Below the pieces are notes generated by a model that saw nothing but the letters and a program-made list of their open reading frames with translations, did not search any database and was not told the DNA's origin. This document shows, one piece after another, positions 732 through 25,545 of a stretch of DNA of 64,000 nucleotides (position 1 is the stretch's first letter; every line of letters begins with the position of its first letter). The translations under genes and the position numbers were made by a program. The DNA comes from an uncultured cyanobacterium. GTDB lineage: Bacteria > Cyanobacteriota > Cyanobacteriia > Cyanobacteriales > CAWUOF01. The stretch spans positions 64,001 to 128,000 of the forward strand of contig CAVUSO010000001.1 of NCBI GenBank assembly GCA_963744145.1. The letters are read 5' to 3'.

Positions 732-3479
732 TCAAAAGCCAAAGATTAGATCACCTATGGTATTAGTTGGTAATGATGGCAACAATGACGTTAGTGCTGA
801 TTGGTTAATGGTAAACTGGGTAGAATTGCCGTTTTTAGTGTACTCCACATTGGACATTAGTGCGATATCTTGCTCTTGAGTTAAAGTGATTTGGATATCA
901 TTGGGAGAAGGTTCCCTAGAAACAGATGCAGGAATACCGACCGAATTATTCAAAGAACCCACAAGCAGATAATTGCTAACCGTATGGTTTAAGCTATCCG
1001 AACTGTGATTTGACTGATCAAAACTGATCCCACTAATAGGTACACCATTAGTGCTACTAGCGATGAGAGTATCCTGATTATTACCATGGAGAATCCCAGA
1101 GATATAAGCGTGGGAATTACTCATACCTGTAAAAGCATCGAATTGCAAATAGGGATCGATCACATCAACGTTAATATCAGTGGGAGAAGAAGATGAGGGT
1201 GTTGATGGAGTTGGTAATGGGGATGGTAATGGGGATGGTAATGGGGATGGGGATGGAGATGGTAATGGGGATGGTAATGGGGATGGAGATGGGGATGGTA
1301 ATGGGGATGGAGATGGTAATGGGGATGGGGATGGAGATGGGGATGGTAATGGGGATGGAGATGGGGATGGTAATGGTAATGGGGATGGAGATGGAGATGG
1401 AGATGGAGATATGATATTATTAAACTCAAAAGCTCCAATATCAATTTTTCCGTCAGTACGTCCTAATCCTCTTTCATCCGTAGTTAGACCACTAACATTT
1501 TGACCAGCATTAATTGCAGGACTACCTGGTAATAATGCTTGAGTCAGAACACCACCACCATTATCTTGTAATGGACCAAGTAGCGGATCAGCAATTAAGA
1601 TAGAAGCGGTGGCATTATTGTCTGTTGGTGTACTAGAAGATGTTAATTTAGCTGGATATTGAATATTACCTCCACCATCAATTAATTCGTTGGTAGTTTC
1701 TTGTTTAATCTGCGAAGGATTACCAGCAGTATTATTATCGAAAATGGTATTTTCGACAGTCACGGGTTGATTATTATTGTTAGCGATCGCTCCTCCAATA
1801 TATCCAGCCTGATTATTGGAAATTGTCGTATTAGTTATATTCGTAGCATTATTACTCTGATTATTTAGAGCAATTGCACCACCGACTCCATTCCCACTAC
1901 CATCATCTGCTTTATTGCCATAAAAAGTAGAATTAGTAATATTTACGGGGGCATTTTCTCCGACTAATAATCCACCACCTTGAGTTAAAGCTGTGTTATT
2001 AGCAATCGTGCTATTTTGGATTGTTAGTTGCGCGTTTCCTTCTCTAATTCCTCCTCCAAGAGCATTTCCATTACTATCTTTAATTACATTATTATTAGTA
2101 ATGGTAGAACCTTGAACCGTAATTTGATCAGCACCATATCCAAATAGAAATGCTCCTCCTCCTTGTCCTCCTCCTTTATTACCATTGATCTGAGTATTAG
2201 TAATAACAATGCTACCTCCCGGTCCATTATTCGGACTGTTCAGACTTGCACCGTCAGTATAGATCGCACCCCCAAATCCTTGACCATAAGCAAGACCTTG
2301 GGTTGAATCGTTATTAGTAAATACAGAACCACTAATATTCAACCCACTTAAAACACTATTAATTGCTCCACCATTGTTACCTTTATTATTAGTAAATGTG
2401 CTATTTGTTATCGTAGTTTGACTACCAGACCAAATGGTAATTGCTCCAGCACCTCGTTCAGTATTTCCTGATGCTTGATTGCCAGTAAATGTACTGTTTG
2501 TAATGGTATTATTAGAGGAATTACCGCAAGTAATAGCACCACCTGATGTCCCCGTATTGTTAATAAATTGACAATTTTGGACAACTAATTTGCCACTACT
2601 TCCTGAATAAATTGCCCCACCATCATTACTATCGCCCTGGTTACTACTATTACCATTAGTAATAGTCATATTGCTAACCGTAAAATTGGTCAGGTCTTGC
2701 ACATTAAAAACGCGGTTAGCATTATTACCATTGAGCGTAACTAATCCACCTCCATCAATAGTAGTGTCATTAGCGATCGTGAGTTGATTACTCAGAGTAA
2801 TAGTAACAGGTGCTCCACCTGTATTAAAGGTAACTGTTCCACCACCTGCTAATGCAGCTCTTAATGCTGCTTCAGTGACACTCGATGCTGTACCATTACC
2901 GACGACACCACCAGCAATAGATTTATACTCTGCTCTAGCTGCTTGAGTAAATGCTAAGGGAGATGTAACTTGACCAATAGTAAATTCTAAATCCCAGTTA
3001 CCACCTTGGTCAGTGCTACCAGTTAAATTAGCAGAAGCAGCGATATTGGTCTGGGTTAATTCACTTAATTTTTGGACAAATGCTGCACCTACTCCTCTGG
3101 CAATTTCACAGCCATATAATAGGATATCGGCACCCTTAACTAGACATTTTTGCCACTGGGTGAAAGCATTGTGGTAAGTAGCTAAAGTATCCCAATTCAG
3201 TTGAGTATTTCCCAGATAGATACATCCAGGACTACCATGGGAAAAAATATGAATAGATGTTAATTTTCCCCACTTAGTAGCAAAGTTTGCCAATTCTTTA
3301 GTAATTTGCTCAATCCCATCTTGGTGACCATCAAGTACAATGACTTCAGTTTCTGGTAAAACTCCTGTAGTAAGAACCTGAATCTCATCGACAGCACCAT
3401 CAATAAAAACTAATCCTCTTGCTTGGGAATTTGGTTGAAAAGATTGAGAATTAGCGTGACTACTATAATAGTTGACCAT
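732..3479 (-). CDS. DUF4347-domain secreted/surface protein with polymorphic-membrane-protein-like beta-helix, choice-of-anchor-Q-like segment and Pro/Ser linker
   Basis: N-terminal LVFIDGAV...[10 protein letters not shown]...DILLYGC...GGNWDLE (DUF4347). Many GGAI/FxxN repeats. [11 protein letters not shown]...SPAINAG...DIGAFE motif. Confidence 0.85.
1213..1410 (-). repeat. Low-complexity 6/12-bp repeat encoding the (PS/PL)n linker
   Basis: GGGGATGGAGAT / GGTAAT repeats on the + strand. Confidence 0.9.
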
Positions 3480-5384: not shown

Positions 5385-6149
5385 ATGAGCAAGTTAATGT
5401 TTGCATTACTAATAATATTGTCTATGAAGATATTCGGACTTGGTTTAATTAAGCAAGTTGCTCATCCTCTTACCATTGATGACAAGAATAACTATCTAAA
5501 TAGTAAGACAAATCGGAGTAATTATACAGCAGATGATAGAATAGTCGATAACATCATCAATAGTAATTATCAAATAGAATCCAGTACCTACACAGATCGG
5601 GGTATTAAAATAGATTATCCCAAAATAACTAATCTCAACAATGATGAGCTAGAACAAAAAATTAATCAGTTAATAAGTCAAGATGTGTTAAAAGTCTTAG
5701 ATCGGGTCTATGGTAATAACTTAGATGAGCTAGATTTATCATTAAAATATGAAGTTACTTATCAGGGGTCTGATATGATAAGTATAAAGTATTTAGGACT
5801 TGGTTATGTTAAAGGTGCTGCGCATCCTAATAATATCATTTATACCACAACTATAGATTTCAACAAACAAAAGGTATTAGCTTTAAATGAAATAATACCG
5901 ATCGATGATACTTTTGTAATAAAATTTAATAATGGTAAATTCCTCTCCGTTAATTCAGCAGCTTTAGAATATGCGATTAAGGATACTAAGCGGGACTTCA
6001 ATGCTGAACGTATTAAGGAATACTTTAGTAAAGATAGCGCAATTTATTATGTCACAGCAAATTCCCTAGTTGTCAGTAACTATGAACTTTCTCACGCGAT
6101 CGGAGATCATGTGGAAGTTGAGTTAGATTATCAAGTTGTAAATAAGTAA
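5385..6149 (+). CDS. Exported DUF4163/DUF3298 (PdaC/RsiV-like) protein
   Basis: Hydrophobic N-terminus; IDYPKI, GAAHPNN and HAIGD motifs. Confidence 0.7.
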   Translation: MSKLMFALLIILSMKIFGLGLIKQVAHPLTIDDKNNYLNSKTNRSNYTADDRIVDNIINSNYQIESSTYTDRGIKIDYPKITNLNNDELEQKINQLISQDVLKVLDRVYGNNLDELDLSLKYEVTYQGSDMISIKYLGLGYVKGAAHPNNIIYTTTIDFNKQKVLALNEIIPIDDTFVIKFNNGKFLSVNSAALEYAIKDTKRDFNAERIKEYFSKDSAIYYVTANSLVVSNYELSHAIGDHVEVELDYQVVNK

Positions 6150-6279
6150 TTGATCTCAGGAATTGGCGCATTTATTAATAGTGCGATCGCGAAAATTAAC
6201 TTGTAGAATCTCTTGATTTGTTTATGATAATTATAGCGATCGCTTGCTGGCTTTTATCCGACCGATGCTAAGGGCAATT

Positions 6280-6702
6280 TTAGTTAGCCTTGACGTAGAT
6301 CAAAGACCCATCAGGACTATCAATGATCAGTTCTTGATCGGTGATATTATAGGACGTAGCTGATTCTAATGCGCGGAAATATTTTTCCTCCTGCCCCAGA
6401 TCTAGGTTTGAGCAGAACATTTTTGTTGAGGATATACCTGAAAATTTGATTGAGTATATACTAAAACTAAAAGAGGCAAAGTATCGGTTGCAACCTGCGC
6501 TACCCGAAACTGTTGGATCGGAGGAAGTATCAAATTTAGCCGTAATTTGAGTAGATGGCAAAACTGGACTTCCTTCTAAGGATTTAAGCCGCCAACTACC
6601 TTGGAGTTCTGCTGCGTAACTGGGGCTAGTAAGTGCTAAAATCAAGCTACATACTGCGAGGGTCAAAATGATAGCCTTGCGAATAAATTTAAAACTTTTC
6701 AT
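6280..6702 (-). CDS. META-domain (HslJ-like) exported protein
   Basis: Signal peptide; WRL, VSGSAGCNRY and STKMFC motifs. Confidence 0.88.
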   Translation of the reverse strand: MKSFKFIRKAIILTLAVCSLILALTSPSYAAELQGSWRLKSLEGSPVLPSTQITAKFDTSSDPTVSGSAGCNRYFASFSFSIYSIKFSGISSTKMFCSNLDLGQEEKYFRALESATSYNITDQELIIDSPDGSLIYVKAN

Positions 6703-7310
6703 TGTTTGATTTTACCTTTACGGAGTGACCAGAGCGGCAAAAGTTATGCTCTGGAATAATTTGGGGGTTATATGACATAAAATTGGTAGGGGCAGTTTCA
6801 CCAATCAATTCTGTCACCAACAGATAACTATTATAAACCTGCCCTGGCCTAACAGATTAACCTCAGATTAAGTGCAATTTCATGTGATTGGTATTAAATT
6901 TACTAATATAATAGGTCTAGTAAAAGCTCTCGATCGATATCGGGAAGAGTGGTAAACCTATTATAGGAAGATAAAACTCGGGATTCTCCGATTTGAATAC
7001 TGGGCGATCGCGCTTGATTTCCTCTTGCCCATAATAATCCATAAATTACTGGAAAAATGAGATAATACTTGGTTTAAATTAATCAGATTTAGTAATAATT
7101 TATCAGTTTCTGAATTACTTCCTGGGCACAATATTCTGGCGTTAATCGCATTCATTACTGGATGATTAAGGCTAGTTGTGAGCGATCGCTATTCTAACTG
7201 CTAGTTTGGCCTGATGAGTTGGATAGTTACCACGGGATATTTTCCAAAAATTTATTGAGGGAGCAGCATTTATTGTAAAATTAATCTCTATAAATATTTT
7301 AAACATTCCT

Positions 7311-10300
7311 ATGAGTGATTCTCAAGTCCCAAAGACCCAATTTTATGACGCCTTTATTTCCTATGGTCGGGCCGATAGTAAGGCTTTTGCTGCCAAACTG
7401 AAAGAACGACTACAGAGTCAAAATCTTGAAGTTTGGTTGGATCTTGAGGAAATTCCCTTCGGGGTTGATTTTCAAAATCAAATAAATGATGGGATCACCA
7501 AAGCTGATAACTTTTTGTTTCTAATTTCGCCCCATTCCGTCAATTCTGCCTATTGTCGCAAAGAAATTGACCTAGCGATCGAATTAAACAAACGAATATA
7601 TCCCATCTGGCACGTTGCGGAAATTGATCAGGAAACGTGGCAAGAACGTAATCCTGGTAAATCTGAAGCTGAATGGCTGAGGTATAAGGAAACGGGACAA
7701 CATTCTACTGTTCCCGGTAAAAATCCCAATATGCACCCTAAAATCGGCGAAATTAATTGGCTCCCTGGTGAAAAAGATAAACAAAGAGATGGTGAAAAAA
7801 GGGATGATTTTGAGGAGAGATTGTTCACATTATTAGATACCGAATTAATAAATATAGTGCGTCGCCATCAAGACTATGTGCGACAACATACAGTTTTGTT
7901 GAATCAAGCTCTTTACTGGAAAGATCAGCAGAAACAAACTCGTTATTTATTAATTGGAGAAGAACGGCAAAAAGCCGAAAAATGGTTAAAAGAGAGAAAA
8001 GAGAGGTTTAAGGAAAAAAAACTAGCGCCCGGCGAACCTACATTGCTGCATTGTGAGTTTATTTGCGAGAGTATCAAGAATGCGAATAACTTGATGACTC
8101 AGGTGTTTCTCTCCTATGCGGAAGTTGATATTTCTACAATGCTTCAAGTTAGAGAGATCCTGTTACGAGAAAGTATTACAGTTTGGACAAATCAGACAGA
8201 TATTCAAACTGGAGAAGTATTTGAGGAGGCAATAGAGCGGGGAATTGAACAAGCGGATAACATTGTCTATTTGATTTCGATCGACGCACTAACATCTTAT
8301 TACTGTCAGAAAGAAATTGACTATGCTCTCTCGTTGAATAAAAGGATTATTCCTTTGTTAATTAAACCAACAGATTTAGAACAAATTCCATCAGTAATTA
8401 GAGGATTACAATTTATTGACTTTACTGATAATCAGACCGAGGCAGATTTACGTCAAGACTTGGATGATTTGCTTAACGTTTTACGAGAAGAGGAGAGTTA
8501 TTACGAAGAACATAAAATGCTGTTAAGCAAGGCGTTGAAATGGGAAGAACAGAAACGCAACCCGAGTATTTTATTACGGGGTTACAATTTGCGCCATGCA
8601 GAAACTTGGTTGAAGGGAGCGGAACGGAAAACTCAACATCAGCCAACAACCTTACAGAAAGAGTTTATTAATGAAAGTTTGCGCCAACCACCTGCCGCAT
8701 CTCTAGACCTATTTATTTCCTATTCAAGATCAGATTCCGATCTAGCCCGTGCATTAAATGATGAGTTGCAGATCCGAGGGAAGACAACTTGGTTTGACCA
8801 AGAGAGTATCGCTTCAGGAGCAGATTTTCAGAAAGAGATTTATGCGGGAATTGAGAGTGCTGATAATTTTCTATTTATTTTGTCCCCGCGTTCTATTAAT
8901 TCGACCTACTGTGCTGATGAGGTGGAATATGCAGCTAAACTTAACAAACGATTTATTACGATCTTACATCAAGATGTGAATACTATTGAATTACATCCAG
9001 AGTTAGCTAAGGTGCAGTGGATTGATTTTCGGCAAAAAGAAGGGGAATTTTCTGCTAATGTTAATCAATTATTAAGAACCTTAGACACTGACCGAGAATA
9101 TATTCAAAATCATACTAAATGGCTACGTCGGGCGATCGAATGGGAAAACCAAGGTAAGAATAATGATTTGCTGCTCAGAGGTAGTGAGTTGGCGATCGCA
9201 GATGACTGGTTGAAGCAAGCAAATCAAGGCAAAAAGCAACCCCAAGTCACGGAATTGCAAACCAACTTTATTGAATCTAGTCGCAATGCGATCGAAGCGA
9301 TCGCTAAACAGGAAAAACAGCAACAGGCTAAAGCTCAGGCACAATATGCTTTATCTCTATTACATCCAAGGGAAGACAAATTGGATGCTTTAATTACCGC
9401 CATTAAGGCTGCCAAGATTATTCAAAAAGAAAATATATCTGAAATAGCGGTGACAGCAGCTTTGGCAAACTCAGTTTTTGATGTTAAGGAACACAACCGT
9501 TTGGTAAACCATCGTGATGGGGTCTTGAGCGTAAGTTTCAGCCCTGATCGTCAAACCTTGGTCTCCAGTAGTTTTGACAAGACGATTAAACTATGGGATG
9601 TCAAGACAGGGCAGGCACTTCGCACTTTTTCTGGCCATAGTAATGCGGTCCATAGCGTAGGTTTCAGCCCCGATGGTCAAACCTTGGCCTCCGGTAGTGC
9701 AGACAAGACGATCAAACTATGGGATGTCAAAACAGGGCAGGCACTTCTCACTCTTTCTGGTCATAGTGATTGTGTCTATAGCGTAGGTTTCAGCCCCGAT
9801 GGTCAAACTTTGGCCTCCGGTAGTGCAGACAAGACGATCAAACTATGGGATGTCAAGACAGGACAGGAACTTCGCACTCTCTCTGGCCATAGTAATTCGG
9901 TCTTTAGCGTAAGTTTCAGTCCCGATGGTCAAACCTTGGCCTCCGGTAGTAGAGACAAGACGATCAAACTATGGGATGTTAAGACAGTTCAGACACTTCG
10001 CCCTCTGATGTTGCTGATTCAAAATATGAATCGATGGCTAAAACCCTCAATGGCTACAAAATTAGGCCAAATCATCCGATCATTCAGCAACACCCGCACT
10101 CTCTCTGGCCATAGTAATTCGGTCTTTAGCGTAAGTTTCAGTCCCGATGGTCATACCTTGGCCTCCGGTAGTGCAGACAAGACGATCAAACTATGGGAGG
10201 TAAAGACAGGTCAGGCACTTCACACTCTCTCTGGTCATAGTGAACAGGTCTTGAGCGTAAGTTTCAGCCCCGATGGTCAAACCTTGGTCTCTGGTAGTTG

Positions 10301-12341
10301 GGACAAGACGATCAAACTATGGGAGGTAAAGACAGGTCAGGCACTTCACACTCTCTCTGGTCATAGTGAACAGGTCTTGAGCGTAAGTTTCAGCCCCGAT
10401 GGTCAAACCTTGGCCTCCGGTAGTAGGGACAAGATGATCAAACTATGGGAGGTAAAGATAGGGAAGGAATTTCGCCCTCTTTCTGGTCATAGTAATACGG
10501 TCTTGAGCGTAAGTTTCAGCCCCGATGGTCAAACCTTGGCCTCCGGTAGTGCAGACAAGACGATCAAACTATGGGATGTCAAGACAGGAAAGAAACTTCG
10601 CACTCTTTCTGGCCATAGTAATTTTGTCAGGAGCGTAAGTTTCAGCCCCGATGGTCAAACCTTGGCCTCTGGTAGTGATGACAAGACAATCAAACTATGG
10701 GAGGTAAAGACAGGAAAGGAACTTCGCACTCTCTCTGGCCATAGTAAGGAGGTCTATAGTATAAGTTTCAGCCCCGATGGTCAAACCTTGGCCTCCGGGA
10801 GTAGGGACAAGACGATCAAACTATGGGATGTCAAGACAGGAAAGAAACTTCGCACTCTCTCTGGCCATAGTAATACGGTCATGAGCGTAAGTTTCAGCCC
10901 CGATGGTCAAACCTTGGTCTCCGGTAGTGCAGACAAGACGATCAAACTATGGGATGTCAAGACAGGAAAGAAACTTCGCACTCTCTCTGGTCATAGTGGA
11001 TGGGTCATGAGCGTAAGTTTCAGCCCCGACGGTCAAACCTTGGCCTCCGCTAGTAGAGACAAGACGCTCAAACTATGGGATGCCAAGACAGGAAAGGAAC
11101 TTCGCACTCTCTCTGGCCATAGTAATCACATCTGGAGCGTAAATTTCAGTCCCGATGGTCAAACTTTGGCCTCCGCTAGTAGAGACAAGACGCTCAAACT
11201 ATGGGATGTCAAGACAGGAAAGGAACTTCGCACTCTCTCTGGCCATAATGATTGGGTCATAAGCGTAAGTTTCAGCTCCGATGGTCAAACTTTGGCCTCC
11301 GGGAGTAGGGACAAGACGCTCAAACGATGGGATGTCAAGACAGGGCAGGAACTTCGCCCTCTCTCTGGTCATAGTAATCACGTCTGGAGCGTAAGTTTCA
11401 GCCCCGATGGTCAAACCTTGGCCTCCGGGAGTAGGGACTATACCATCAAACGATGGGATGTCAAGACAGGGCAGGAACTTCGCCCTCTCTCTGGTCATAG
11501 TAATCACGTTAGGAGCGTAAGTTTCAGCCCCGATGGTCAAGCCTTGGCCTCTGGTAGTTATGACAAGACGATCAAACTATGGGATGTCAAGACCGGGCAG
11601 GCACTTCTCACTCTCTCTGACCATAATGATTGGGTCATAAGCGTAAGTTTCAGCTCCGATGGTCAAACTTTGGCCTCCGGGAGTAGGGACTATACCATCA
11701 AACTATGGGATGTCAAGACAGGAAAGAAACTTCGCACTCTCTCTGGCCATAGTAATACGGTCAATAGCGTAAGTTTCAGTCCCGATGGTCAAACCTTGGC
11801 CTCCGGTAGTTATGACAAGACGATCAAACTATGGGATGTCAAGACCGGGCAGGCACTTCTCACTCTTTCTGGTCATAGTGATTGTGTCTATAGCGTAGGT
11901 TTCAGCCCCGATGGTCAAACCTTGGCCTCTGGTAGTGAGGACAATCGGATCAAACTATGGGATGTCAAGACCGGGCAGGAACTTCGCGCTCTCTCTGGCC
12001 ATAGTTATGGGGTCAGGAGCGTAGGTTTCAGCCCCGATGGTCAAACCTTGGCCTCTGGTAGTGAGGACAATCGGATCAAACTATGGGATGTCAAGACCGG
12101 GCAGGAACTTCGCACTCTCTCTGGCCATAGTTATGGGGTCAATAGCGTAAGTTTCAGCCCCGATGGTCAAATCTTGGCCTCCAGTAGTGAGGACAAAACG
12201 ATCAAACTATGGAAGTTAGTAGAGTTTGATTTAAACCATCTCTTAGAAAGGGGCTGCCATTGGGTACACGCTTATTTACACAATCCTGATTCTGGTTTAG
12301 ACGAGAGTGACAGACATATTTGCGACGATATCAGGTACTGA
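7311..12341 (+). CDS. Triple-TIR domain protein with 21 C-terminal WD40 repeats
   Basis: Three FISY/FLSY...S.YC..E TIR motifs, each followed by a helical LLxGxE/N..AExWL segment, then 21 GH...WD/WE repeats. Confidence 0.92.
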   Translation: MSDSQVPKTQFYDAFISYGRADSKAFAAKLKERLQSQNLEVWLDLEEIPFGVDFQNQINDGITKADNFLFLISPHSVNSAYCRKEIDLAIELNKRIYPIWHVAEIDQETWQERNPGKSEAEWLRYKETGQHSTVPGKNPNMHPKIGEINWLPGEKDKQRDGEKRDDFEERLFTLLDTELINIVRRHQDYVRQHTVLLNQALYWKDQQKQTRYLLIGEERQKAEKWLKERKERFKEKKLAPGEPTLLHCEFICESIKNANNLMTQVFLSYAEVDISTMLQVREILLRESITVWTNQTDIQTGEVFEEAIERGIEQADNIVYLISIDALTSYYCQKEIDYALSLNKRIIPLLIKPTDLEQIPSVIRGLQFIDFTDNQTEADLRQDLDDLLNVLREEESYYEEHKMLLSKALKWEEQKRNPSILLRGYNLRHAETWLKGAERKTQHQPTTLQKEFINESLRQPPAASLDLFISYSRSDSDLARALNDELQIRGKTTWFDQESIASGADFQKEIYAGIESADNFLFILSPRSINSTYCADEVEYAAKLNKRFITILHQDVNTIELHPELAKVQWIDFRQKEGEFSANVNQLLRTLDTDREYIQNHTKWLRRAIEWENQGKNNDLLLRGSELAIADDWLKQANQGKKQPQVTELQTNFIESSRNAIEAIAKQEKQQQAKAQAQYALSLLHPREDKLDALITAIKAAKIIQKENISEIAVTAALANSVFDVKEHNRLVNHRDGVLSVSFSPDRQTLVSSSFDKTIKLWDVKTGQALRTFSGHSNAVHSVGFSPDGQTLASGSADKTIKLWDVKTGQALLTLSGHSDCVYSVGFSPDGQTLASGSADKTIKLWDVKTGQELRTLSGHSNSVFSVSFSPDGQTLASGSRDKTIKLWDVKTVQTLRPLMLLIQNMNRWLKPSMATKLGQIIRSFSNTRTLSGHSNSVFSVSFSPDGHTLASGSADKTIKLWEVKTGQALHTLSGHSEQVLSVSFSPDGQTLVSGSWDKTIKLWEVKTGQALHTLSGHSEQVLSVSFSPDGQTLASGSRDKMIKLWEVKIGKEFRPLSGHSNTVLSVSFSPDGQTLASGSADKTIKLWDVKTGKKLRTLSGHSNFVRSVSFSPDGQTLASGSDDKTIKLWEVKTGKELRTLSGHSKEVYSISFSPDGQTLASGSRDKTIKLWDVKTGKKLRTLSGHSNTVMSVSFSPDGQTLVSGSADKTIKLWDVKTGKKLRTLSGHSGWVMSVSFSPDGQTLASASRDKTLKLWDAKTGKELRTLSGHSNHIWSVNFSPDGQTLASASRDKTLKLWDVKTGKELRTLSGHNDWVISVSFSSDGQTLASGSRDKTLKRWDVKTGQELRPLSGHSNHVWSVSFSPDGQTLASGSRDYTIKRWDVKTGQELRPLSGHSNHVRSVSFSPDGQALASGSYDKTIKLWDVKTGQALLTLSDHNDWVISVSFSSDGQTLASGSRDYTIKLWDVKTGKKLRTLSGHSNTVNSVSFSPDGQTLASGSYDKTIKLWDVKTGQALLTLSGHSDCVYSVGFSPDGQTLASGSEDNRIKLWDVKTGQELRALSGHSYGVRSVGFSPDGQTLASGSEDNRIKLWDVKTGQELRTLSGHSYGVNSVSFSPDGQILASSSEDKTIKLWKLVEFDLNHLLERGCHWVHAYLHNPDSGLDESDRHICDDIRY
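9501..12213 (+). repeat. Array of 21 highly similar 126-bp WD40-coding units
   Basis: Recurring AGCGTAAGTTTCAGCCCCGATGGTCAAACCTTGGCCTCCGGTAGT...AAACTATGGGATGTCAAGACAGG. Confidence 0.95.
10007..10094. mobile_element. 88-bp MITE-like element inserted in frame in the WD40 array
   Basis: Imperfect terminal inverted repeats GATGTTGCTGAT.../...ATTCAGCAACACC. Flanking 8-bp duplication CGCCCTCT (9999-10006) / CGCACTCT (10095-10102). 88+8 = 96 bp = 32 codons. Confidence 0.75.
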
Positions 12342-12360
12342 CGATATCGGTACTGTTCCT

Positions 12361-14634
12361 ATGAGTGATTCTCTACTCCCAAGTACCCTACTTTACCATG
12401 CGTTTATTTCCTATGGTCGAGCCGATAGTAAGGCTTTTGCTGCCAAACTACAAGAACGACTACAGAGTAATGGTTTTCAAGTTTGGTTTGATTTCAATGA
12501 TATTCCCTTGGGGATTGATTATCAAAATCAGATTGATGATGGGGGGATAACCAAAGCTGATAACTTTCTGTTTCTAATTTCGCCCGATTCCGTTAATTCT
12601 CCCTATTGTCGCCAAGAAATTGAACGAGCCATCGAATTAAAAAAACGCATTATTCCCATCCTGTACGTTAAACAAATTAGTCAGGAAACTTGGCAACAAC
12701 AGAATCCTGGTAAATCTGAAGCTGACTGGCAAATCTATCAGGAAAAGGGATTACATTCTACTGATCCCAAGACCAATCCCAATATGCACTCTGTCATCAG
12801 CAAAATCAATTGGATCTTTGTTCAAGAAGGGATTGATGATTTTGAGAAGGGATTGAGCGCATTAATAGATATATTTCGTCGCCATCAAGACTATGTGCGA
12901 CAACATACAGTTTTGTTGAATCAAGCAATTGACTGGGAACAGCAGCAGAAACAAACTCGTTATTTATTAATTGGGAAAGAACTGCAAACAGCAGAAATAT
13001 GGTTAAAAAAGAGGTTTAAGGAAGAACAAGCACCCTGCGAACCTACATTGCTGCATTGTGAGTTAATTTGCGAGAGTATCAAGAATGCCAATAACTTGAT
13101 GACTCAGGTGTTTCTTTCATATTCGGAAGTAGATCGTTCTACAATGCTTCAAATTCGGGAGAGATTATTACGAGAAGGGATTACGGTTTGGACAAATCAG
13201 ACAGATATCCAAACTGTTGAGGAGGTAATAAATCGGGGAATTACTCAAGCGGATAATGTGGTCTATTTGATTTCGACCGATGCACTGACATCTCATGACT
13301 GTCAGAAAGAAATTGACTATGCTCTCTCGTTGAATAAAAGAATTATTCCTTTGTTAATTAAACCAATAGATTTAGAACAAATTCCACCAACAATAAAAGG
13401 ATTACAACGGATTAACTTTACTGACAATCAGACTGAGGTGGATTTACGTCAGGATTTAGTGGATGATTTGCTCAAGGTTTTACGGGAAGATGCCAGCTAT
13501 TACGAAGAGCATAAAAAGCTGTTATGCAAGGCGTTGAAGTGGGAAAAACAGAACCGCAAACCCAGTATTTTATTGCGGGGTTACAATTTGGGTTACAATT
13601 TGCGCCATGCAGAAATTTGGTTGAAGGGAGGGGAACGGAAAACCCAACATCAGCCGACAAACTTACAAAAAGAGTTTATTAATGAAAGTTTGCTCCAGCC
13701 TCTTGAAGAATCTCTAGATGTATTTATTTCCTACTCTAGGTCTGATTCTGATCTAGCCCGTGCATTAAATGATAAGTTGCAAGTACAAGGAAAGACTACT
13801 TGGTTTGACCAAGAAAGTATTACATCAAAGACGGATTTTCAGCAAGAGATTTATCGGGTAATAGAGAGTGCGGACAATTTTTTGTTTATTTTGTCGCCAC
13901 GTTCTATTAATTCTCCTCACTGTGCTGATGAGTTTGAATATGCAGCTAAACTTAACAAACGATTTATTACTGTATTGCATCAAGATGTGAATACTACTGA
14001 ATTACATCCAGAGTTAGCTAAGATGGAGCGGATTGATTTTACGCAAGGAGCATTTGATGCGAATGTTAATGAATTGTTGAGGATTTTAGACACAGACAGG
14101 GAATATATCAAAAGTCATACTAAATTGCTGCGTCGGGCGATTGAATGGGAAAACCAAGATCAAAATAATTATTTACGGCTAAAAGGTAGTGAGCTTAGGA
14201 GCGCGTATAAATGGTTCCAAAAAACAACTCAAAGTAAAAAGCAACCTCCTGTCACAGAACTACAAACTAAGTTTATTGAGTCTAGTCATAATGCGATCAA
14301 GGAGATTGCTAAAATGGAATACGCACAACGATTCTATACGGCGAAGAAATATTCAAAAAAGATGGTATTCATGATGGTATTCATGATGGTATTATATTAC
14401 GGATTTGTCGGCTTGAACCGTATATTAATGTGGGAAAAAAGTCTCCAAAATCGAATCACACAGCTCAAAAATCAAATCACACAGGATAAAGCTGATAATG
14501 AAAATATGAACAATAACATCAAAAAGATGAACCAAAACATAAACCAACTATGCTCTACATCCGATAATTCTGATTCTGGTTTAGATGAGAAGCAAAGACA
14601 TATTTGCGATGATTACCGTACTGGGAAAAATTAA
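12361..14634 (+). CDS. Triple-TIR paralog with C-terminal transmembrane helix and coiled coil (no WD40)
   Basis: Start placed at ATG 12361 by homology with 7311 (TTCCT-ATGAGTGATTCTC). Three TIR domains; hydrophobic MVFMMVFMMVLYYGFVGL; C-terminal DSGLDE..RHICDD.R shared with the upstream gene. Confidence 0.85.
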   Translation: MSDSLLPSTLLYHAFISYGRADSKAFAAKLQERLQSNGFQVWFDFNDIPLGIDYQNQIDDGGITKADNFLFLISPDSVNSPYCRQEIERAIELKKRIIPILYVKQISQETWQQQNPGKSEADWQIYQEKGLHSTDPKTNPNMHSVISKINWIFVQEGIDDFEKGLSALIDIFRRHQDYVRQHTVLLNQAIDWEQQQKQTRYLLIGKELQTAEIWLKKRFKEEQAPCEPTLLHCELICESIKNANNLMTQVFLSYSEVDRSTMLQIRERLLREGITVWTNQTDIQTVEEVINRGITQADNVVYLISTDALTSHDCQKEIDYALSLNKRIIPLLIKPIDLEQIPPTIKGLQRINFTDNQTEVDLRQDLVDDLLKVLREDASYYEEHKKLLCKALKWEKQNRKPSILLRGYNLGYNLRHAEIWLKGGERKTQHQPTNLQKEFINESLLQPLEESLDVFISYSRSDSDLARALNDKLQVQGKTTWFDQESITSKTDFQQEIYRVIESADNFLFILSPRSINSPHCADEFEYAAKLNKRFITVLHQDVNTTELHPELAKMERIDFTQGAFDANVNELLRILDTDREYIKSHTKLLRRAIEWENQDQNNYLRLKGSELRSAYKWFQKTTQSKKQPPVTELQTKFIESSHNAIKEIAKMEYAQRFYTAKKYSKKMVFMMVFMMVLYYGFVGLNRILMWEKSLQNRITQLKNQITQDKADNENMNNNIKKMNQNINQLCSTSDNSDSGLDEKQRHICDDYRTGKN

Positions 14635-15103
14635 TCTAAATTACTTGGAAATATCCCTTATTTGTCAACAGTAATTCTGAGTTAAAGTGATTAATCTGGA
14701 GCAGAGCGATCGCATTTCCCCAACCAGCATAAGCAGTCTTAATTCTGATCACGATCGCCTTCTCCTCAAGATAGCATTTAGCAGCGATCGCGCCTGACTT
14801 CGCGAGAAATTGATTTAGTACGCAAATTCTAGGTTTGAGGATTGCATTACCTGTTAAAGGGTGGAACAGACATAGTTGAATAGAAACACTATTTTCAATG
14901 GTCCATGCTACGCCCTAATTTTTGATCGACAAGTTTGCTCAATATCCTTGATCGCTTTGACCTGAAAGCGATCGCCAAAATGAGATATATAAAATTTATT
15001 TTCTAATTCCTGACACCATTGCGCTAAAAGATATTATGGTACTAATACTAATGCAGATGCCTGAAAATGATCCAGTAAATATTGACGCAGAATTGCACCA
15101 GCT

Positions 15104-16009
15104 TCAATAAACACTATAACTTATTTCCTGAGTCTGGGTCAATTCGTGAGAATTGTTGACAGTTAAATAAAAATATCGTTTAGTTGTTTCTGGTAAAATC
15201 GCTCCAGTTAAGTTAACACCATCAACAGTAGCACCGATTAAAGTAGCTTCACTCAAATCTGCTTCGCTCAGATCTGCCTGACATAATCTCGCCCAATTGA
15301 GATTAGCTCTCATTAAAAAAGCTCCACTCAAATTTGCTCCCGCTAAATCTGCTCCGGTTAGTTGAGCACCTCGCATTTGTGCTTGAGTGAGATTAGCAGA
15401 GATCATATTTGCTCCTTCTAAGTTAGCCCCACTCAGTCTTGCTTCACTCATATTCACTCCATTTAAGTCAACCCCACCCAAATCAATCCCATTCATAAAA
15501 GCTTTACTGAGGTTAACTCCATTTAAAAATGCTCCTAAGAGCATTGCTCCACTGAGTTTAGCGGCACCAAGATTAGACCAATTTAAGTTAGCACCATTCA
15601 AATTGGCTCCCCGCAGATTTGCCGATTGTAAATTAGCACTACATATATTGGTACTCCACAAATTAGCACCTCTGAGGTTAGCTCCACTCAGATTGGCTCC
15701 ACTTAATTTTGCCCTTGGTAATTTAGTTTTTACCATAAAAGTTCCATTCATGACTGCTTTAGTTAAGTCGGTATCAATCAGTTTTGCTTCACCTAATTTC
15801 GCAAAACTTAGGTTTGCCCAATTGAGTGATGCTTCACTGAAATCTGTTTTTGTTAAAAATGCACGACTAAGATTTGCCCCGATTAACTTAGCTTTAGTTA
15901 AATTAACACCAATTAATATCGCTCCACTCAGATCCGCTCCCGTCAGATCCACACCAGTAAAATTTCTTTCTCCCTGTTCGTAATATCTCAGCAAACAACT
16001 AGCTTTCAT
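15104..16009 (-). CDS. Pentapeptide repeat protein
   Basis: YEQGERNF N-terminus and A(D/N)LxG repeats throughout. Confidence 0.93.
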   Translation of the reverse strand: MKASCLLRYYEQGERNFTGVDLTGADLSGAILIGVNLTKAKLIGANLSRAFLTKTDFSEASLNWANLSFAKLGEAKLIDTDLTKAVMNGTFMVKTKLPRAKLSGANLSGANLRGANLWSTNICSANLQSANLRGANLNGANLNWSNLGAAKLSGAMLLGAFLNGVNLSKAFMNGIDLGGVDLNGVNMSEARLSGANLEGANMISANLTQAQMRGAQLTGADLAGANLSGAFLMRANLNWARLCQADLSEADLSEATLIGATVDGVNLTGAILPETTKRYFYLTVNNSHELTQTQEISYSVY

Positions 16010-16721
16010 GGCGATATCTCTCCAGTAACTACTTATTGAATCTAACCCAATAGCTAAGATATTAGCATTTTAAGATTGATCCCTGTTGCCAAAACGTCCA
16101 ATCTCTTTTAATCTACTAGCTAGCTAAGATGAAATTTGATCCAGTCGTTTGGCAGCCCTACTTCTAACTTTATATTATTCCCAGCTTGAATAAATAATTA
16201 ACTTTTTTTTAAAAAATTAAAATAAATATTTATTAAGTAGGCTGAGAAAATTAAAGGTGAAATTATGGACGTAAGTATTCGGACATAAATTCGGTTCGCT
16301 GGATCAACAATTACCAAACTTTTATTTATGAGGGGTAGTCAGCGATCGCTATTCCAAATTTCAGCACTCACGCGATCGCCCTAGAAACGGAGTGATTGCA
16401 TTTTCTTGACCACAATGTTAATCAAAATATCCCAGAAGTTAACCTGAATAATAGAAGTATCGCGTTAAGATTTTGATTTTATTAGTGCGATCGTCAGAAA
16501 GCTAGCAACTGTTGAAATATTTCAGTGAAGCCAAATGGAAAAATTTACCGCTTACCTTTGCTCTTCGAGCTTTTTTCATAAGTGAGATGCACTGGTTTAA
16601 TCCTGAGATTAGCTGGTATAATTCTTGACATTAGCATGGTTGGTGAGCTGTACGCCCCTATCAGCGAGACTCATTAGCTGTCTTTTCCGGTAACTGGGTA
16701 AGTCCGATCAGATTCAAAATT

Positions 16722-17801
16722 GTGAATAACCCTGCAAAAAAGTATCTGGTAGTAGGTGCGGGGAATATCGGTTTGGCTACGGCTGCTTTCTTAGCTGATC
16801 AAGGAGCTGATATATACTTATATACTCGACGTAAGACTACTATTGCCAAAACGAAAACACTCTACTCAACAGGACTGATCTCGTCAGGGACTCAGACGAT
16901 CGCTGAATGTTCAACAAATTTAGCCACCCTAGTAAAAAAAAGCGGAAGATTAATCCGCAGAGTAATTATCGGCTGTTGGGGAAACGATGTAGAAAACTTA
17001 GCTGTCCGATTCGCTCCCTATGTCAGTCAAGATCTGAGCATACTGCTAATCTGTTCCGGTCGCTTTGCTGGGTTGCTGTTCCTAAAGACTTTAAGTAGGT
17101 TAGGCGTTCCGCCCGATCAACTCCCCGCAGTTGCTGATGTTCATGTCAGCCCTTTCGTTAGTCGTAGCAATGCTGATGATCAGGTCAATATTATTGCCTT
17201 AAAAAATGATGTCAGCGTCGCGGCATAAACTCCAGCCATGACCGAGCAGATCCTGCAAGATTTTCAAGGGATTTTTAGCAATATTTCTCCTGTTGAATCT
17301 TTTCTAGAAGTGAATTGGCAGAAATGTGACGAGATAGTTCATATTCCCCTACTCTTGACCAGCTGGATCAACATAGAAAACCAAGAAGGGCATAATATTT
17401 ATAAAACCGCAACCCATAACACTGCTCAACTGGTTATTCAATTGGATCGAGAACGTCTGGCTGTGGGTAAGGCTCTTGGTTTTGAGTTGATGAATGTGTG
17501 CGCTGATTATGAGAGAATCTATGGGACTTCAGGCCCGTCTCTGCTGGAACATTTTCGCCAAGTTCCTGCCTATAAACAAGCAACTATCCAAAATCCTCAG
17601 CACAGATTTTTAGTTGAAGATGTGCCTTTCAGCGCTGAACCCCTGCAATCCTTGGCTGATTTCCTACAGGTAAAAACGCCTCTCCTTGATGCTTGTATTA
17701 TGTTTTCTCGTTCTTTGCTTGAGATCCCACCAACATGGACTCTGGAAGCTGAGGATTTAGAGATGCTGAAGGCAACTGCTAATTCAAGAAAAAGAACCTA
17801 A
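16722..17801 (+). pseudogene. NAD(P)-dependent opine/octopine dehydrogenase-like gene interrupted by an in-frame TAA at 17226-17228
   Basis: The two ORFs share one frame. N-terminal Rossmann motif VVGAGNIG; C-terminal LDRERLAVGKALG and HRFLVEDVPF...TPLLD opine-dehydrogenase motifs. Confidence 0.75.
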
Positions 17802-17806
17802 TTCTT

Positions 17807-18050
17807 ATGAAAGAACCTAGTTTTTATGGTCGCTTTTTCCGACTAGCTTTCTTCAATATTCTCTCTAATTTGATCGTGCCTTTAGCTGGTTTAGTTGATC
17901 TAGCATTCCTGGGGCACTTGAGCGATATTCATCACCTGGCTGGAGTCAGTTTAGCAACTGTCTTATTTGACTACATATACTGGACTTTCGGCTTTTTACG
18001 CATGGGTACAACTGGAACAACGGCTCAAGCGGTGGGATGCTCGGATTCTG
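17807..18050 (+). pseudogene. 5' fragment of a MATE (DinF-like) efflux transporter
   Basis: NILSNLIVPLAGLVDLAFLGH...FGFLRMGTTGTTAQAVG, then loss of similarity after about 80 codons. Confidence 0.8.
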
Positions 18051-18252
18051 AGGGCTGTGAGCAGGTTGGCAAAAAGAAGGAGAATGGTTGACTAACGTTG
18101 CCCTAATATTTGATATTGATAAAGCACCTATAGGTCACTTTCCAGGTCGCATAAGTTTAATAATGGTCAATAGCAGTCTTTATGGTTGGGTCTGTTCAAT
18201 TTCGTTGAACATAACAGAGCTTTTTGCTCGTCTAGATAATTGTAACCTGTAA
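18051..18252 (+). pseudogene. 3' remnant of a GUN4-domain gene
   Basis: CEQVG, then after a frameshift GEWLTNVALIFDIDKAPIGHFPG...W...LFARLDNCNL*. This matches the GUN4 C-terminal pattern W..L.F...AP.GHLP...LFSRL..C.L. Confidence 0.55.
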
Positions 18253-24387: not shown

Positions 24388-25545
24388 ATGTCTAAACAAC
24401 TTACACAAGCATATCTTGACGAATTGAAACAAGTTTTTGATTCCTTTGATACTGATGGTAATGGCTCATTATCACGTTCAGAAGTCACTAATGTCCTGCG
24501 TTCTTTGAGAATGAACCCAAATACTGAAGATATAGAGTCCATTTTCATTAGTGTTGATCAAGATGTAAGCAATACGATAGAGTTTGATGAATTGTCTCAG
24601 TGGATTGCCAATCAAGTTGGGATAACTTCTCAAGACGATTTGTTGGAGCTTTTTCACCTAATTGATTTAGATAACAACGGCACTATCTCAACGGATGAAC
24701 TACGAGAGTTGCTTGATGCCTTGAATATTAACGTCAGTGATCATGACATCGAAACCTTGATACAACAAGCCGATGCCGATAGAAATGACCTCATTGAGTT
24801 CGATGAATTTGTCAAAAGTGCGGGTTTGTGGACTCGGATTAAATTAGCAGTTGGTGTGGTACGTTCCTTTTACGTACAAGCAGAATTTGACTCACTCGCA
24901 CGAGAATATAATCAAATCATCCGTTTGTGGGTTCCTTGGTACGATGAGAGTCTTAGGGCAACGCTGAAATACCTACCAAATCAGTCCGCTGCGCCGCATA
25001 TCCTTGAACTCGGCGGAGGTACTGGCAACCTTACCGCTGCTGTCCTACAACGCTACCAAGAAGCCGATGTTCATGTTGTAGATAGTTCCAGTAAGATGAT
25101 CAATTTTTGTCAGCATCGCTTTGCCAAGAATGGGCAAATCCACCTCTACGAGCAGGACTTCATAACACTGGATTTCAAAGAAGCCTCCTTTGACTACGTT
25201 ATCTCACAACTCACTCTGCATCATTTAAATGATGCCAATAAAAAACAAGTGTTCAAAAATGTACATCGGTGGTTAAAGTCTGATGGCGTATTCTCTTACT
25301 CCGACTGCTTTCGCGGGATTAATAATCAGATAGATGAATTCTATAATGCAGAATGGAAAAGTGCTGCTTATGAGCTAGGAGCAACGGATGAACAATGGAA
25401 TCATTTTTGGGATCACCAGCAACGCTATGACCAACATATCCCTATTACAATAGTCATAGATTGGTTGAGAGAAATTGGCTTTGTGGATATTGATATCACC
25501 TGGCGTTTTTCCAAAGTGGCAAACATTATTGCTCGAAAAGCTTGA
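24388..25545 (+). CDS. Four-EF-hand (calmodulin-like) domain fused to a class I SAM-dependent methyltransferase
   Basis: EF loops DTDGNGSLSRSE, DQDVSNTIEFDE, DLDNNGTISTDE, DADRNDLIEFDE. MTase motifs ILELGGGTG, FDYVIS, LHHL, LKSDG. Confidence 0.88.
   Translation: MSKQLTQAYLDELKQVFDSFDTDGNGSLSRSEVTNVLRSLRMNPNTEDIESIFISVDQDVSNTIEFDELSQWIANQVGITSQDDLLELFHLIDLDNNGTISTDELRELLDALNINVSDHDIETLIQQADADRNDLIEFDEFVKSAGLWTRIKLAVGVVRSFYVQAEFDSLAREYNQIIRLWVPWYDESLRATLKYLPNQSAAPHILELGGGTGNLTAAVLQRYQEADVHVVDSSSKMINFCQHRFAKNGQIHLYEQDFITLDFKEASFDYVISQLTLHHLNDANKKQVFKNVHRWLKSDGVFSYSDCFRGINNQIDEFYNAEWKSAAYELGATDEQWNHFWDHQQRYDQHIPITIVIDWLREIGFVDIDITWRFSKVANIIARKA

What the first reader, a model, noticed from the sequence alone, without database searches (positions are those of the whole stretch)
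7311..14634. Paired triple-TIR locus: same effector chassis with a swapped sensor (WD40 propellers vs membrane-anchored coiled coil)
Seen: two adjacent co-oriented genes 19 bp apart share their start context, three TIR domains (each with the Glu of the S.(Y/H)C..E motif) and a C-terminal tail (DSGLDE..RHICDD.R). The segment between these shared parts is 21 WD40 repeats in gene 1 and a TM helix plus coiled coil in gene 2. I see no P-loop NTPase domain in either. Established: bacterial TIR domains are NAD+-cleaving or signalling effectors in anti-phage systems (Thoeris, some CBASS and Pycsar). Inference: this is an NTPase-less sensor/helper or decoy pair, possibly an undescribed cyanobacterial innate-immune system in which a cassette between fixed flanks is exchanged.
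Basis: partly seen in the sequence, partly recalled or inferred. Interest (0 to 1): 0.72.

Follow-up and report, generated by a model that had tools for sequence, protein, structure and literature searches.

The report
Two derived copies of a triple-TIR receptor
Two neighbouring cyanobacterial genes are altered copies of a widespread family of membrane receptors with three NAD-cleaving TIR domains: one copy lost its membrane anchor, and the other lost its WD40 sensor and gained a short piece of repeat-made filler, so this is not a sensor swap.

Summary
In detail: the two genes lie 19 bp apart, each has three TIR domains that all keep the Glu, they share a tail, gene 1 has 21 WD40 repeats, and neither has an NTPase.

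The "swapped sensor" reading does not hold.
- This genome has about nine copies of the family, which is widespread in cyanobacteria (at least 604 stretches in species-representative genomes).
- The family layout is three TIR+helix modules, a TM helix, a linker, a WD40 array (or CHASE2/dCache), and a two-Cys C-cap.
- The shared tail is that C-cap.
- Gene 1 lost the TM helix through a ~31-residue deletion.
- Gene 2 lost the linker and WD40 array. In their place are 246 nt with no credible relative in this genome or among 1.84 billion representative proteins (one weak hit).
- That segment is built largely from 12- and 21-nt tandem duplications, which produce its hydrophobic helix and heptads.
- Gene 2 evolves under relaxed constraint (ω≈0.4-0.5, against 0.1-0.3 in paralogs) but keeps its reading frame.

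At family level, 29 of 78 related loci carry SLOG, SLATT or patatin genes next to the TIR gene. The genome's only LSDAT-type SLOG gene, a SLOG-SLATT fusion, sits beside one paralog. This points to Thoeris-like TIR signalling from a sensor that probably faces outward.

The pair itself has no adjacent effector. No function was tested.

The parts
7166..7310 (+). Upstream region of gene 1, shared with two dispersed paralogs
   Evidence: 94% identical to the DNA upstream of the paralogs at G000:C1:6773398-6773542 and 5312342-5312471. No promoter-like signal above chance.
7311..12341 (+). Gene 1: triple-TIR protein with 21 WD40 repeats and a C-cap, but no TM helix (1676 aa)
7311..9314 (+). Gene 1: three TIR + three-helix modules. 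The Cys-x-x-Glu motifs are at 7554-7565, 8304-8315 and 8910-8921
   Evidence: TIR matches. Collinear with gene 2. Motif positions. Codons ~1-240 are 94-100% identical (99-100% over codons 60-240) to two other paralogs, which indicates gene conversion.
9297..9338 (+). Site in gene 1 where the family's basic patch and TM helix (~31 residues) are missing
   Evidence: Alignment of the junction region with 7 own-genome paralog sequences and 2 close relatives. No hydrophobic segment found in gene 1.
9521..12212 (+). WD40 array of gene 1: 126-nt units, 3.9 + 16.8 copies, 87-88% matches
   Evidence: TRF; Pfam WD40, 21 stretches; repeat list.
10008..10100 (+). Unique insert of about 32 residues between WD40 repeats
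   Evidence: Repeat spacing is 74 instead of 42 residues. No other copy in the genome and no WD40-like reading in other frames.
12240..12338 (+). C-cap of gene 1 (two Cys). This is the 'shared tail'
   Evidence: The same cap ends every WD40 paralog in the genome. Position.
12324..12355 (+). 16/15-nt direct tandem repeat at the gene 1/gene 2 junction. The first copy creates gene 1's stop codon
   Evidence: TRF: period 16, 2.1 copies, 94% matches. Sequence. Reading the sequence shows that without the first copy gene 1 would run in frame into gene 2's ATG (inference).
12361..14634 (+). Gene 2: triple-TIR protein without a WD40 array (757 aa)
   Evidence: AF2 model: mean pLDDT 86.7, pTM 0.78, residues ~1-660 confident. 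TIR fold matches.
12361..14319 (+). Gene 2: three TIR + three-helix modules. The Cys-x-x-Glu motifs are at 12607-12618, 13300-13311 and 13921-13932
   Evidence: Four private in-frame indels and loss of family-conserved Gly/Trp residues in TIR2, TIR3 and helix module 3.
14320..14565 (+). Orphan middle segment of gene 2. Hydrophobic core at 14362-14415, heptad helices at 14434-14550. Tandem repeats at 14361-14393 (12 nt x2.8, 100%), 14443-14484 and 14501-14540 (21 nt x2)
   Evidence: No DNA or protein match elsewhere in the genome. One weak hit among 1.84 billion representatives for aa 640-757. Not found in 40 relatives. TRF. AF2 pLDDT 46-66 here. An environmental RNA-library contig covers 14428-14609.
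14548..14631 (+). Remnant of the WD40 C-cap in gene 2 (both Cys kept)
   Evidence: 85% over 75 nt to the end of the broken paralog at C1:5315107-5315181, running through the stop codon, and 85% over 48 nt to gene 1's cap. Position.

Best explanation
Both genes belong to one large cyanobacterial family of multi-TIR receptors.

The standard member has three TIR domains, each followed by a small three-helix module and each keeping the catalytic Glu. After these come a basic patch and one membrane-spanning helix, a helical linker, and a sensor. The sensor is usually 14-16 WD40 repeats closed by a two-Cys cap, and sometimes CHASE2 or dCache.

The charge distribution around the helix, and the CHASE2/dCache variants, put the TIRs in the cytoplasm and the sensor outside (inferred).

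Family genes often sit next to SLOG-SLATT or SLOG+patatin genes. The likely mechanism is therefore Thoeris-like: a sensor event brings the TIRs together, they convert NAD+ into an ADP-ribose-derived signal (or simply consume NAD+), and a SLOG-gated membrane or lipid-attacking effector responds (inferred; nothing was assayed).

In this window both copies are derived. Gene 1 lost the TM helix by a ~31-residue deletion and is a soluble sensor-bearing form. Gene 2 lost the linker and the whole WD40 array. What lies between its third module and the remnant of the C-cap is a young filler grown by 12- and 21-nt tandem duplications. It is not an alternative sensor.

Gene 2 has no upstream region of its own and is probably co-transcribed with gene 1. 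It evolves under relaxed constraint. I judge it a sensor-less by-product that is at most accessory and may be on the way to decay.

Any signalling by this pair would have to act in trans, for example on the genome's single SLOG-SLATT gene beside another paralog.
For: Family and layout:
- The own genome gives 10 matches: gene 2, gene 1, six further intact frames of 1087-1493 aa, and one broken copy in two pieces.
- All WD40 paralogs end in the same cap.
- The junction alignment shows a TM in every aligned paralog except gene 1. The paralog left out of that alignment has one by hydropathy (P0009).
- 1610 relatives were found among 8000 scored candidates, and at least 604 stretches in species-representative genomes.
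- A TM lies within 70 residues after module 3 in 63 of 72 examined. Net charge is +2.9 before the helix and +0.6 after it, and 53 of 63 are more positive on the N side.
- CHASE2 occurs in 18 and dCache in 2 of the 120 listed relatives.

TIR competence:
- The Glu is kept in 123/123, 121/123 and 120/123 sequences.
- Sequence matches to solved TIR and NADase structures, namely SARM1, AbTIR and Cat1.
- Fold matches with TM-score up to 0.84 normalised to the target.

Effector link:
- SLOG+patatin operons lie upstream of family genes in L022, L024 and L025. A SLOG-SLATT fusion lies beside the own-genome paralog in L029. Two SLATT genes are in L020.
- 29 of 78 loci carry such genes within 8 kb. Leaving out the four loci that supplied or duplicate the HMM training sequences gives 25 of 74.
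- The genome has exactly one LSDAT_prok SLOG match, and it is the neighbour of that paralog.

Gene 2 as a deletion derivative:
- It keeps a cap remnant with DNA homology running through the stop codon.
- Its middle segment is orphan and made of tandem repeats.
- A second, independent WD40 collapse exists elsewhere (P0028).

Relaxed constraint in gene 2:
- Branch ω is 0.38-0.49, against 0.10 (paralog 1) and 0.28-0.29 (gene 1).
- Private changes are 40 non-synonymous to 9 synonymous.
- It has four private indels, against 0-2 in the other paralogs.
- It has lost conserved Gly residues after strand B of TIR2 and TIR3, and conserved Trp residues.
Against: - Gene 2's frame is intact over 2274 nt. 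All four private indels and all four tandem-repeat units are multiples of three, and branch ω is below 1. Some selection for a protein therefore persists.
- An environmental relative (95-99% identical contigs in an RNA library) carries gene 2's orphan segment without indels, so the form is not a one-strain accident.
- Sensor-less TM-anchored forms recur elsewhere with well-conserved TIRs: 1-12 deviations at 259 conserved columns. One of them lies in tandem with full-length copies (L082).
- Gene 2's 23 deviations at those columns fall within the range of its intact paralogs, 6-25.
- No SLOG, SLATT or patatin gene, and no other defence gene, lies next to this pair. Its neighbours are hypA/hypB, PdaC-like, META and pentapeptide genes.
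- 49 of 78 related loci showed none of the three effector types.
- The topology, the NADase or signal chemistry, and the trigger are all inferred.
Confidence: 0.55

Rival explanations
1. Sensor/helper (split-receptor) pair. Gene 1, soluble with WD40, and gene 2, membrane-anchored without a sensor, are made from one transcript. They associate through their TIR/helix modules and together rebuild a membrane-tethered receptor, or gene 2 acts as a decoy or brake.
For: - The two losses are complementary: TM in gene 1, sensor in gene 2.
- The spacing is 19 bp and gene 2 has no upstream region of its own.
- Gene 2's frame has been kept despite indels and repeat growth.
- A short TIR3-TM form lies in tandem with full-length forms in L082.
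- The catalytic Glu is kept in all three of gene 2's TIRs.
Against: - Gene 2 has raised ω and has lost family-conserved residues in TIR2, TIR3 and helix module 3.
- Its anchor and helices come from perfect or near-perfect tandem duplications, and aa 640-757 have only one weak hit in the library search.
- This C-terminal region was not found in 40 relatives.
- The other tandem pairs I inspected in detail (Symploca) are two full-length copies.
- No interaction was tested.
Confidence: 0.2
2. Gene 2 is a functionless remnant: a pseudogene that still has an open frame by luck or because the events are recent.
For: - 40 non-synonymous to 9 synonymous private changes at otherwise invariant sites.
- The most private indels of any paralog.
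- An orphan low-complexity filler.
- The same family has a plainly broken copy in this genome, and pseudogenes lie nearby in the window.
Against: - Three-taxon ω is 0.38-0.49, not ~1.
- No frameshift or stop in 757 codons.
- Every indel and repeat unit preserves the frame.
- A ~97% identical environmental relative has no indels in the covered parts.
Confidence: 0.3
3. The family is not an immune system. It is an environmental or cell-cell signalling receptor that uses TIR-made NAD+ derivatives as ordinary second messengers, or for developmental cell death in filaments.
For: - CHASE2 and dCache are classic environmental sensor domains (their role is from general knowledge).
- The paralogs are dispersed among housekeeping genes, not in defence islands.
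- There are up to nine copies per genome.
- 49 of 78 loci show no effector neighbour.
Against: - The neighbours that do recur (SLOG-SLATT, SLOG+patatin, and SLATT fused to a Glyco_hydro_19 (chitinase class I) or Peptidase_C39-like domain) are cell-damaging effector types.
- TIR+SLATT and TIR+SLOG are described Thoeris configurations (preprint 10.64898/2025.12.03.692087, passages seen).
Confidence: 0.25

Closest known systems
Thoeris anti-phage systems (TIR signal generator ThsB plus an effector with a signal-binding domain; types I, III and VII as described in preprint 10.64898/2025.12.03.692087, passages seen)
   Same: - TIR domains with the catalytic Glu.
- Relatives and one own-genome paralog lie next to SLOG, SLATT or patatin genes.
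- TIR-level matches to ThsB models and to the type III ThcB4 model.
   Different: - Three TIRs on one chain, each with a helix module.
- A TM helix and a large sensor that probably faces outward.
- The ThcB4 score of 98 bits is far below its cut-off of 220.
- This pair has no adjacent effector and is not in a defence island.
- No phage test has been done.
Toll-like / IL-1 receptors of animals
   Same: Single-pass layout with a repeat-built ectodomain on one side and TIR on the cytoplasmic side (family norm). TIR fold matches to the TRR-2, TLR1 and MyD88 TIRs.
   Different: - Reversed order (TIR N-terminal).
- Three TIRs that keep the enzymatic Glu.
- WD40/CHASE2 instead of LRR/Ig.
- This is an analogy of layout only. 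No common descent of the architecture is implied, and gene 1 lacks the TM.
TIR-NTPase-repeat (STAND/NLR-like) proteins of multicellular bacteria and plants (Kaur et al. 2020, PMC7159879, passages seen)
   Same: An N-terminal TIR effector and C-terminal WD40-type repeats. Lineage-specific expansion in filamentous cyanobacteria.
   Different: No P-loop NTPase between TIR and repeats. A TM helix separates the two in most members.
SARM1 and AbTir-type NAD+-cleaving TIR domains
   Same: Best sequence and fold matches among solved structures. The Glu aligns with the conserved Glu of those TIRs.
   Different: Only the domain is shared (E 1e-7 to 1e-4). Activity is not shown here.

Membership tests
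Cyanobacterial triple-TIR receptor family (defined here; named only 'TIR domain-containing protein' in databases) | Three TIR + three-helix modules, collinear with relatives | tested here: met
   Both genes. 54-80% identity to the listed relatives over ~640 residues. Module structure from AF2.
Cyanobacterial triple-TIR receptor family | TM helix directly after module 3 | tested here: inconclusive
   Gene 1: not met, because a ~31-residue deletion removes it. Gene 2: a hydrophobic core lies at the equivalent position but has no sequence similarity to the family TM and is made by a 12-nt tandem repeat.
Cyanobacterial triple-TIR receptor family | Sensor module after the TM (WD40 with two-Cys cap, CHASE2 or dCache) | tested here: inconclusive
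   Gene 1: met (21 WD40 plus cap). Gene 2: not met, as only the cap remnant is left.
Thoeris | TIR protein with the catalytic Glu | tested here: met
   All six TIRs keep it.
Thoeris | Adjacent effector gene with a signal-binding domain (SLOG, Macro, SLATT and the like) | tested here: not met
   None within the flanking genes of this pair. It is met at the own-genome paralog in L029 and at 29 of 78 related loci.
Thoeris | Infection-triggered production of an ADPR-derived signal, and protection from phage | not testable with these tools
   Needs experiments.
Thoeris type III ThcB4 (NCBIfam NF058526) | Score at or above the curated cut-off | tested here: not met
   98 bits against a cut-off of 220. 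Only the TIR core aligns.
STAND/NLR-like TIR-NTPase-WD40 | Central P-loop NTPase | tested here: not met
   Pfam finds only TIR families in gene 2, and gene 1 residues 1-680 are collinear with gene 2.

The most novel reading that the evidence does not exclude
The family is a prokaryotic counterpart of Toll-like receptors. Its members would be single-pass receptors that sense cues outside the cytoplasm with WD40, CHASE2 or dCache ectodomains. They would signal inward through three enzymatic TIR domains to SLOG-gated killers (SLATT pores, patatin lipases), that is, an outside-in Thoeris.

Within that frame, gene 1 (soluble sensor) and gene 2 (membrane-anchored, sensor-less) could be a naturally split receptor. 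I put that sub-claim alone at about 0.1-0.2.
Probability: 0.3. Interest if true: 0.8.

Novelty: new variant of a known kind. Interest (0 to 1): 0.5.

Why it matters
Described TIR-signalling defences, as far as I recall, use cytoplasmic sensors.

This family has three TIRs behind a membrane helix, with WD40, CHASE2 or dCache on the far side. It is repeatedly linked to SLOG-SLATT or SLOG-patatin genes. If the inferred topology is right, it would couple extracytoplasmic sensing to NAD+-derived signalling in bacteria. That would give a testable bacterial analogue of the receptor-TM-TIR layout of animal immunity.

The pair in this window matters less than it first looked. Its value is as a natural dissection of the family: a TM-less copy and a sensor-less copy side by side. 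It also shows how repeat arrays collapse and how a new helical segment can grow from tandem duplications.

I found no description of the triple-TIR/TM/WD40 or CHASE2 architecture in the searchable library. The 2015 survey of SLOG/SLATT systems that I recall could not be opened and may already mention such links.

Tried and rejected
- Complex prediction (two copies of gene 2 residues 640-757) was never queued. The queue was full, so self-association was not tested.
- Frameshifted-repeat idea for the ~32-residue insert in gene 1's WD40 array: the other frames and the reverse strand show no WD40-like reading and there is no other genomic copy. I dropped the idea and the origin stays unknown.
- The heptad shuffle test (0 of 5000 shuffles reach the observed a/d hydrophobicity) at first looked like evidence for a selected coiled coil. 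TRF then showed that the periodicity comes from 21-nt (7-codon) tandem duplications. I do not count it as independent evidence.
- The 'private change' ω of 1.14 for gene 2 is biased upward, because only sites invariant in the seven other paralogs were used. The three-taxon estimate is 0.38-0.49.
- Identity of the three-helix module: no Pfam match at E up to 5. The atlas feature search gave only a TIR cluster at 0.76.
- Rfam: no match in 6000-16500.
- Promoter and terminator scans: not above shuffles.
- Close-relative synteny: only one genome of the same family is held, and the flank query found no syntenic locus.
- RNA evidence: one metatranscriptome holds four short contigs covering parts of gene 1's end and gene 2. 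DNA carry-over cannot be excluded and no silent control could be laid (cap reached), so transcription is not shown. Uncovered parts say nothing.
- Earlier notes of this scan: three look-ups returned nothing.
- Papers: Kaur 2020 and 2021, Doré 2024, the TIR survey and Iyer 2022 were searched by passages only. None describes this architecture in the passages returned.

Full report
**Observation.**
- The window holds two co-oriented ORFs: gene 1 at 7311-12341 (1676 aa) and gene 2.
- The ORF listing starts gene 2 at a GTG at 12307 that overlaps gene 1. The family alignment and the shared start point to the ATG at 12361 (757 aa), which leaves a 19-bp gap.
- DNA similarity begins 5 nt before each ATG and runs for 2 kb: 81% over 2027 nt, 7306-9314 against 12356-14319. 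At protein level 496 of 686 residues are identical.
- Gene 2 matches Pfam TIR_2 in three stretches and no non-TIR family.
- Gene 1's TIRs show in PADLOC, NCBIfam and PDB searches, and its C-terminal part gives 21 WD40 stretches.
- The Cys-x-x-Glu motif is present in all six TIRs.
- The tails match in 14 of 18 residues.
- The sequence-level description is therefore confirmed.

**What the family is.**
- The same genome (7.7 Mb, 4 contigs) gives 10 matches to gene 2: the two window genes, six more intact frames of 1087-1493 aa, and one copy broken into two frames.
- Every WD40-bearing copy ends in the same cap, with two Cys and often the same last four residues as gene 2.
- I aligned the region after the third TIR module for eight of the ten own-genome match sequences (including both window genes) and two close relatives. 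The order is a basic patch, a ~22-residue hydrophobic helix, a helical linker, then the WD40 array.
- Gene 1 alone lacks ~31 residues covering the basic patch and helix. Gene 2 alone lacks the linker and WD40. The one intact paralog left out of that alignment has the helix by hydropathy (P0009).
- Outside this genome the family is large. All names given are cyanobacterial.
- Among the 120 listed proteins, the part after module 3 is mostly WD40. It is CHASE2 in 18, dCache in 2 and WD40+TPR in 3. The rest are TIR-only and often partial.
- Of 72 relatives that passed my filter (recognisable end of module 3 and at least 70 residues after it; 46 of 118 did not pass), 63 have a hydrophobic segment within 70 residues.
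- Net charge over 15 residues is +2.9 before the helix and +0.6 after it, and 53 of 63 are more positive on the N side.
- Together with the CHASE2/dCache forms, whose sensor domains are extracytoplasmic by general knowledge, this puts the TIRs inside and the sensor outside. This is an inference.
- TM-less WD40 lineages also exist (P0085, P0088, P0095, P0122). One protein has module 3 joined straight to the cap (P0028), which is an independent array collapse.

**The TIR part.**
- AF2 on a 65-sequence alignment gives mean pLDDT 86.7 and pTM 0.78 for gene 2. It shows three α/β TIR units, each followed by three helices, and low confidence (46-66) from about residue 680.
- Foldseek finds TIR domains: Hydra TRR-2 at TM 0.84, SARM1 at 0.80, and also MyD88, SPARTA and AbTir.
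- Sequence search of solved structures finds bacterial TIR proteins, Cat1, SARM1 and AbTIR at E 1e-7 to 1e-4, with the Glu aligned.
- In a 123-sequence family alignment the Glu is kept in 123, 121 and 120 sequences for TIR1-3.
- The three-helix module has no Pfam or atlas match.

**Neighbourhoods.**
- Around the window pair lie hypA, hypB, PdaC-like, META and pentapeptide genes, plus a split dehydrogenase and a MatE fragment. There is no NTPase, SLOG, Macro or other defence gene.
- Elsewhere the picture differs. In Rivularia, Richelia and an uncultured genome, a SLOG (LSDAT_prok) gene and a patatin gene lie directly upstream of the family gene and in the same orientation.
- The own-genome paralog at C1:2848895-2853118 has a divergent SLOG-SLATT fusion as its neighbour. 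A Symploca tandem pair has two SLATT genes upstream.
- With HMMs built from those proteins, 29 of 78 related loci carry SLOG, SLATT and/or patatin within 8 kb. Leaving out four loci tied to the training set gives 25 of 74. Loci from one genome are not independent.
- Some SLATT proteins are fused to a Glyco_hydro_19 (chitinase class I) or Peptidase_C39-like domain.
- The own genome has a single LSDAT_prok match, the one beside the paralog.
- TIR+SLATT and multi-TIR+SLOG are described Thoeris configurations (preprint 10.64898/2025.12.03.692087, passages).
- The family therefore most likely generates a signal in Thoeris-like circuits. It does not pass the type III ThcB4 model cut-off (98 against 220 bits).

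**Gene 2 in detail.**
- DNA homology to the paralogs stops at 14319 and resumes at 14566 in the cap. The best match there is the end of the broken paralog: 85% over 75 nt, running through the stop codon.
- The 246 nt between have no match in the genome.
- Residues 640-757 have one weak hit (E 7.6e-6, a low-complexity stretch) among 1.84 billion representatives. They are not found in 40 relatives of the same order.
- TRF shows the segment is largely tandem duplications: 12 nt x2.8 at 100% (which makes the hydrophobic core), two 21-nt x2 arrays (each unit is one heptad), and a further 12-nt array.
- The 'TM helix plus coiled coil' is thus real as sequence. It is explained by recent slippage, so my shuffle test adds nothing independent.
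- Gene 2 is about equally distant (78-85% nt) from all paralogs and shows no recent conversion. Gene 1's codons ~1-240 are 94-100% identical (99-100% over codons 60-240) to two other copies.
- Branch ω for gene 2 is 0.38-0.49, against 0.10 and 0.28-0.29 for two comparators.
- Its private changes at otherwise invariant sites are 40 non-synonymous to 9 synonymous. Most paralogs have a ratio of 0.19-0.63. One other odd paralog reaches 1.55.
- It has four private indels, all in frame. It has lost conserved Gly and Trp residues in TIR2, TIR3 and helix module 3.
- Against plain decay: there is no stop or frameshift, all repeat units are multiples of three, and 23 deviations at 259 conserved columns is within the 6-25 range of its intact paralogs.
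- Also against plain decay, an environmental RNA-library assembly holds 95-99% identical contigs, one of which spans the orphan segment without indels. Transcription is not proven by this.

**The junction.**
A 16/15-nt tandem repeat at 12324-12355 supplies gene 1's stop codon. Reading the sequence, without its first copy gene 1's cap would continue in frame into gene 2's start. The pair may descend from a head-to-tail fusion that was later split (inference).

**Tandem copies elsewhere.**
- Eight of the 78 loci hold two or three family genes. The script flagged twelve, and I judged four of them to be overlapping matches within one gene.
- The Symploca pairs are two full-length forms.
- One Dapis locus has a WD40 form, a 688-aa TIR3-helix-TM form with nothing after the helix, and a CHASE2 form in a row.
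- Short forms elsewhere keep conserved columns well, with 1-12 deviations. Sensor-less anchored forms may therefore have a role, which keeps the helper model alive.

**Verdict.**
- The locus is not a cassette swap between fixed flanks. It is two differently damaged or derived copies of a standard triple-TIR/TM/WD40 receptor.
- The more interesting result is at family level: an NTPase-less, probably outside-in TIR receptor family tied to SLOG-SLATT/patatin effectors. I did not find it described.

Noticed in passing
window 6777-6897: A ~120-nt dispersed repeat (MITE-like). 19 further copies at 81-93% identity are listed in the same genome, one of them next to another triple-TIR paralog.
   Followed up: no
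window 16722-17228, 17238-17801, 17807-18091: A dehydrogenase of the octopine/nopaline type is split into two adjacent frames, followed by a 94-aa MatE fragment. These are likely pseudogenes just downstream of the pair.
   Followed up: no
window 12324-12355: A 16/15-nt tandem duplication at the gene 1/gene 2 junction creates gene 1's stop codon. Without the first copy the two genes would be one frame.
   Followed up: partly
window 10008-10100: A unique insert of about 32 residues inside an otherwise regular 42-residue WD40 array. It has no copy elsewhere in the genome and its origin is unknown.
   Followed up: partly
G000:C1:5312466-5315175 (L009, L010, L032): A broken family copy in two overlapping frames. 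Its 5' part is nearly identical to gene 1, and its 3' end is the best match to gene 2's tail.
   Followed up: partly
window 7311-8030 and paralogs at G000:C1:1633940-1637203 and 5312466-5313635: Codons ~1-240 of gene 1 are 94-100% identical (99-100% over codons 60-240) to two dispersed paralogs, and identity then drops to 75-92%. This is mosaic gene conversion within the family.
   Followed up: partly
L053:8721-10166, L100:714-3056: SLATT (DUF4231) proteins next to family genes are fused to a Glyco_hydro_19 (chitinase class I) domain and, in L100, also to a Peptidase_C39-like domain. This would be an unusual SLATT effector with a possible wall-degrading part.
   Followed up: no
G000:C1:1633940-1637203 (P0009): A 1085-aa paralog with a degenerate WD40 region and the highest private non-synonymous to synonymous ratio (36:6). 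It may be another decaying copy.
   Followed up: no
window 24388-25545: A fusion of EF-hand pairs with a SAM-dependent methyltransferase domain.
   Followed up: no
window 732-3479 (-): A 915-aa protein with an N-terminal DUF4347 domain and a right-handed beta-helix region.
   Followed up: no
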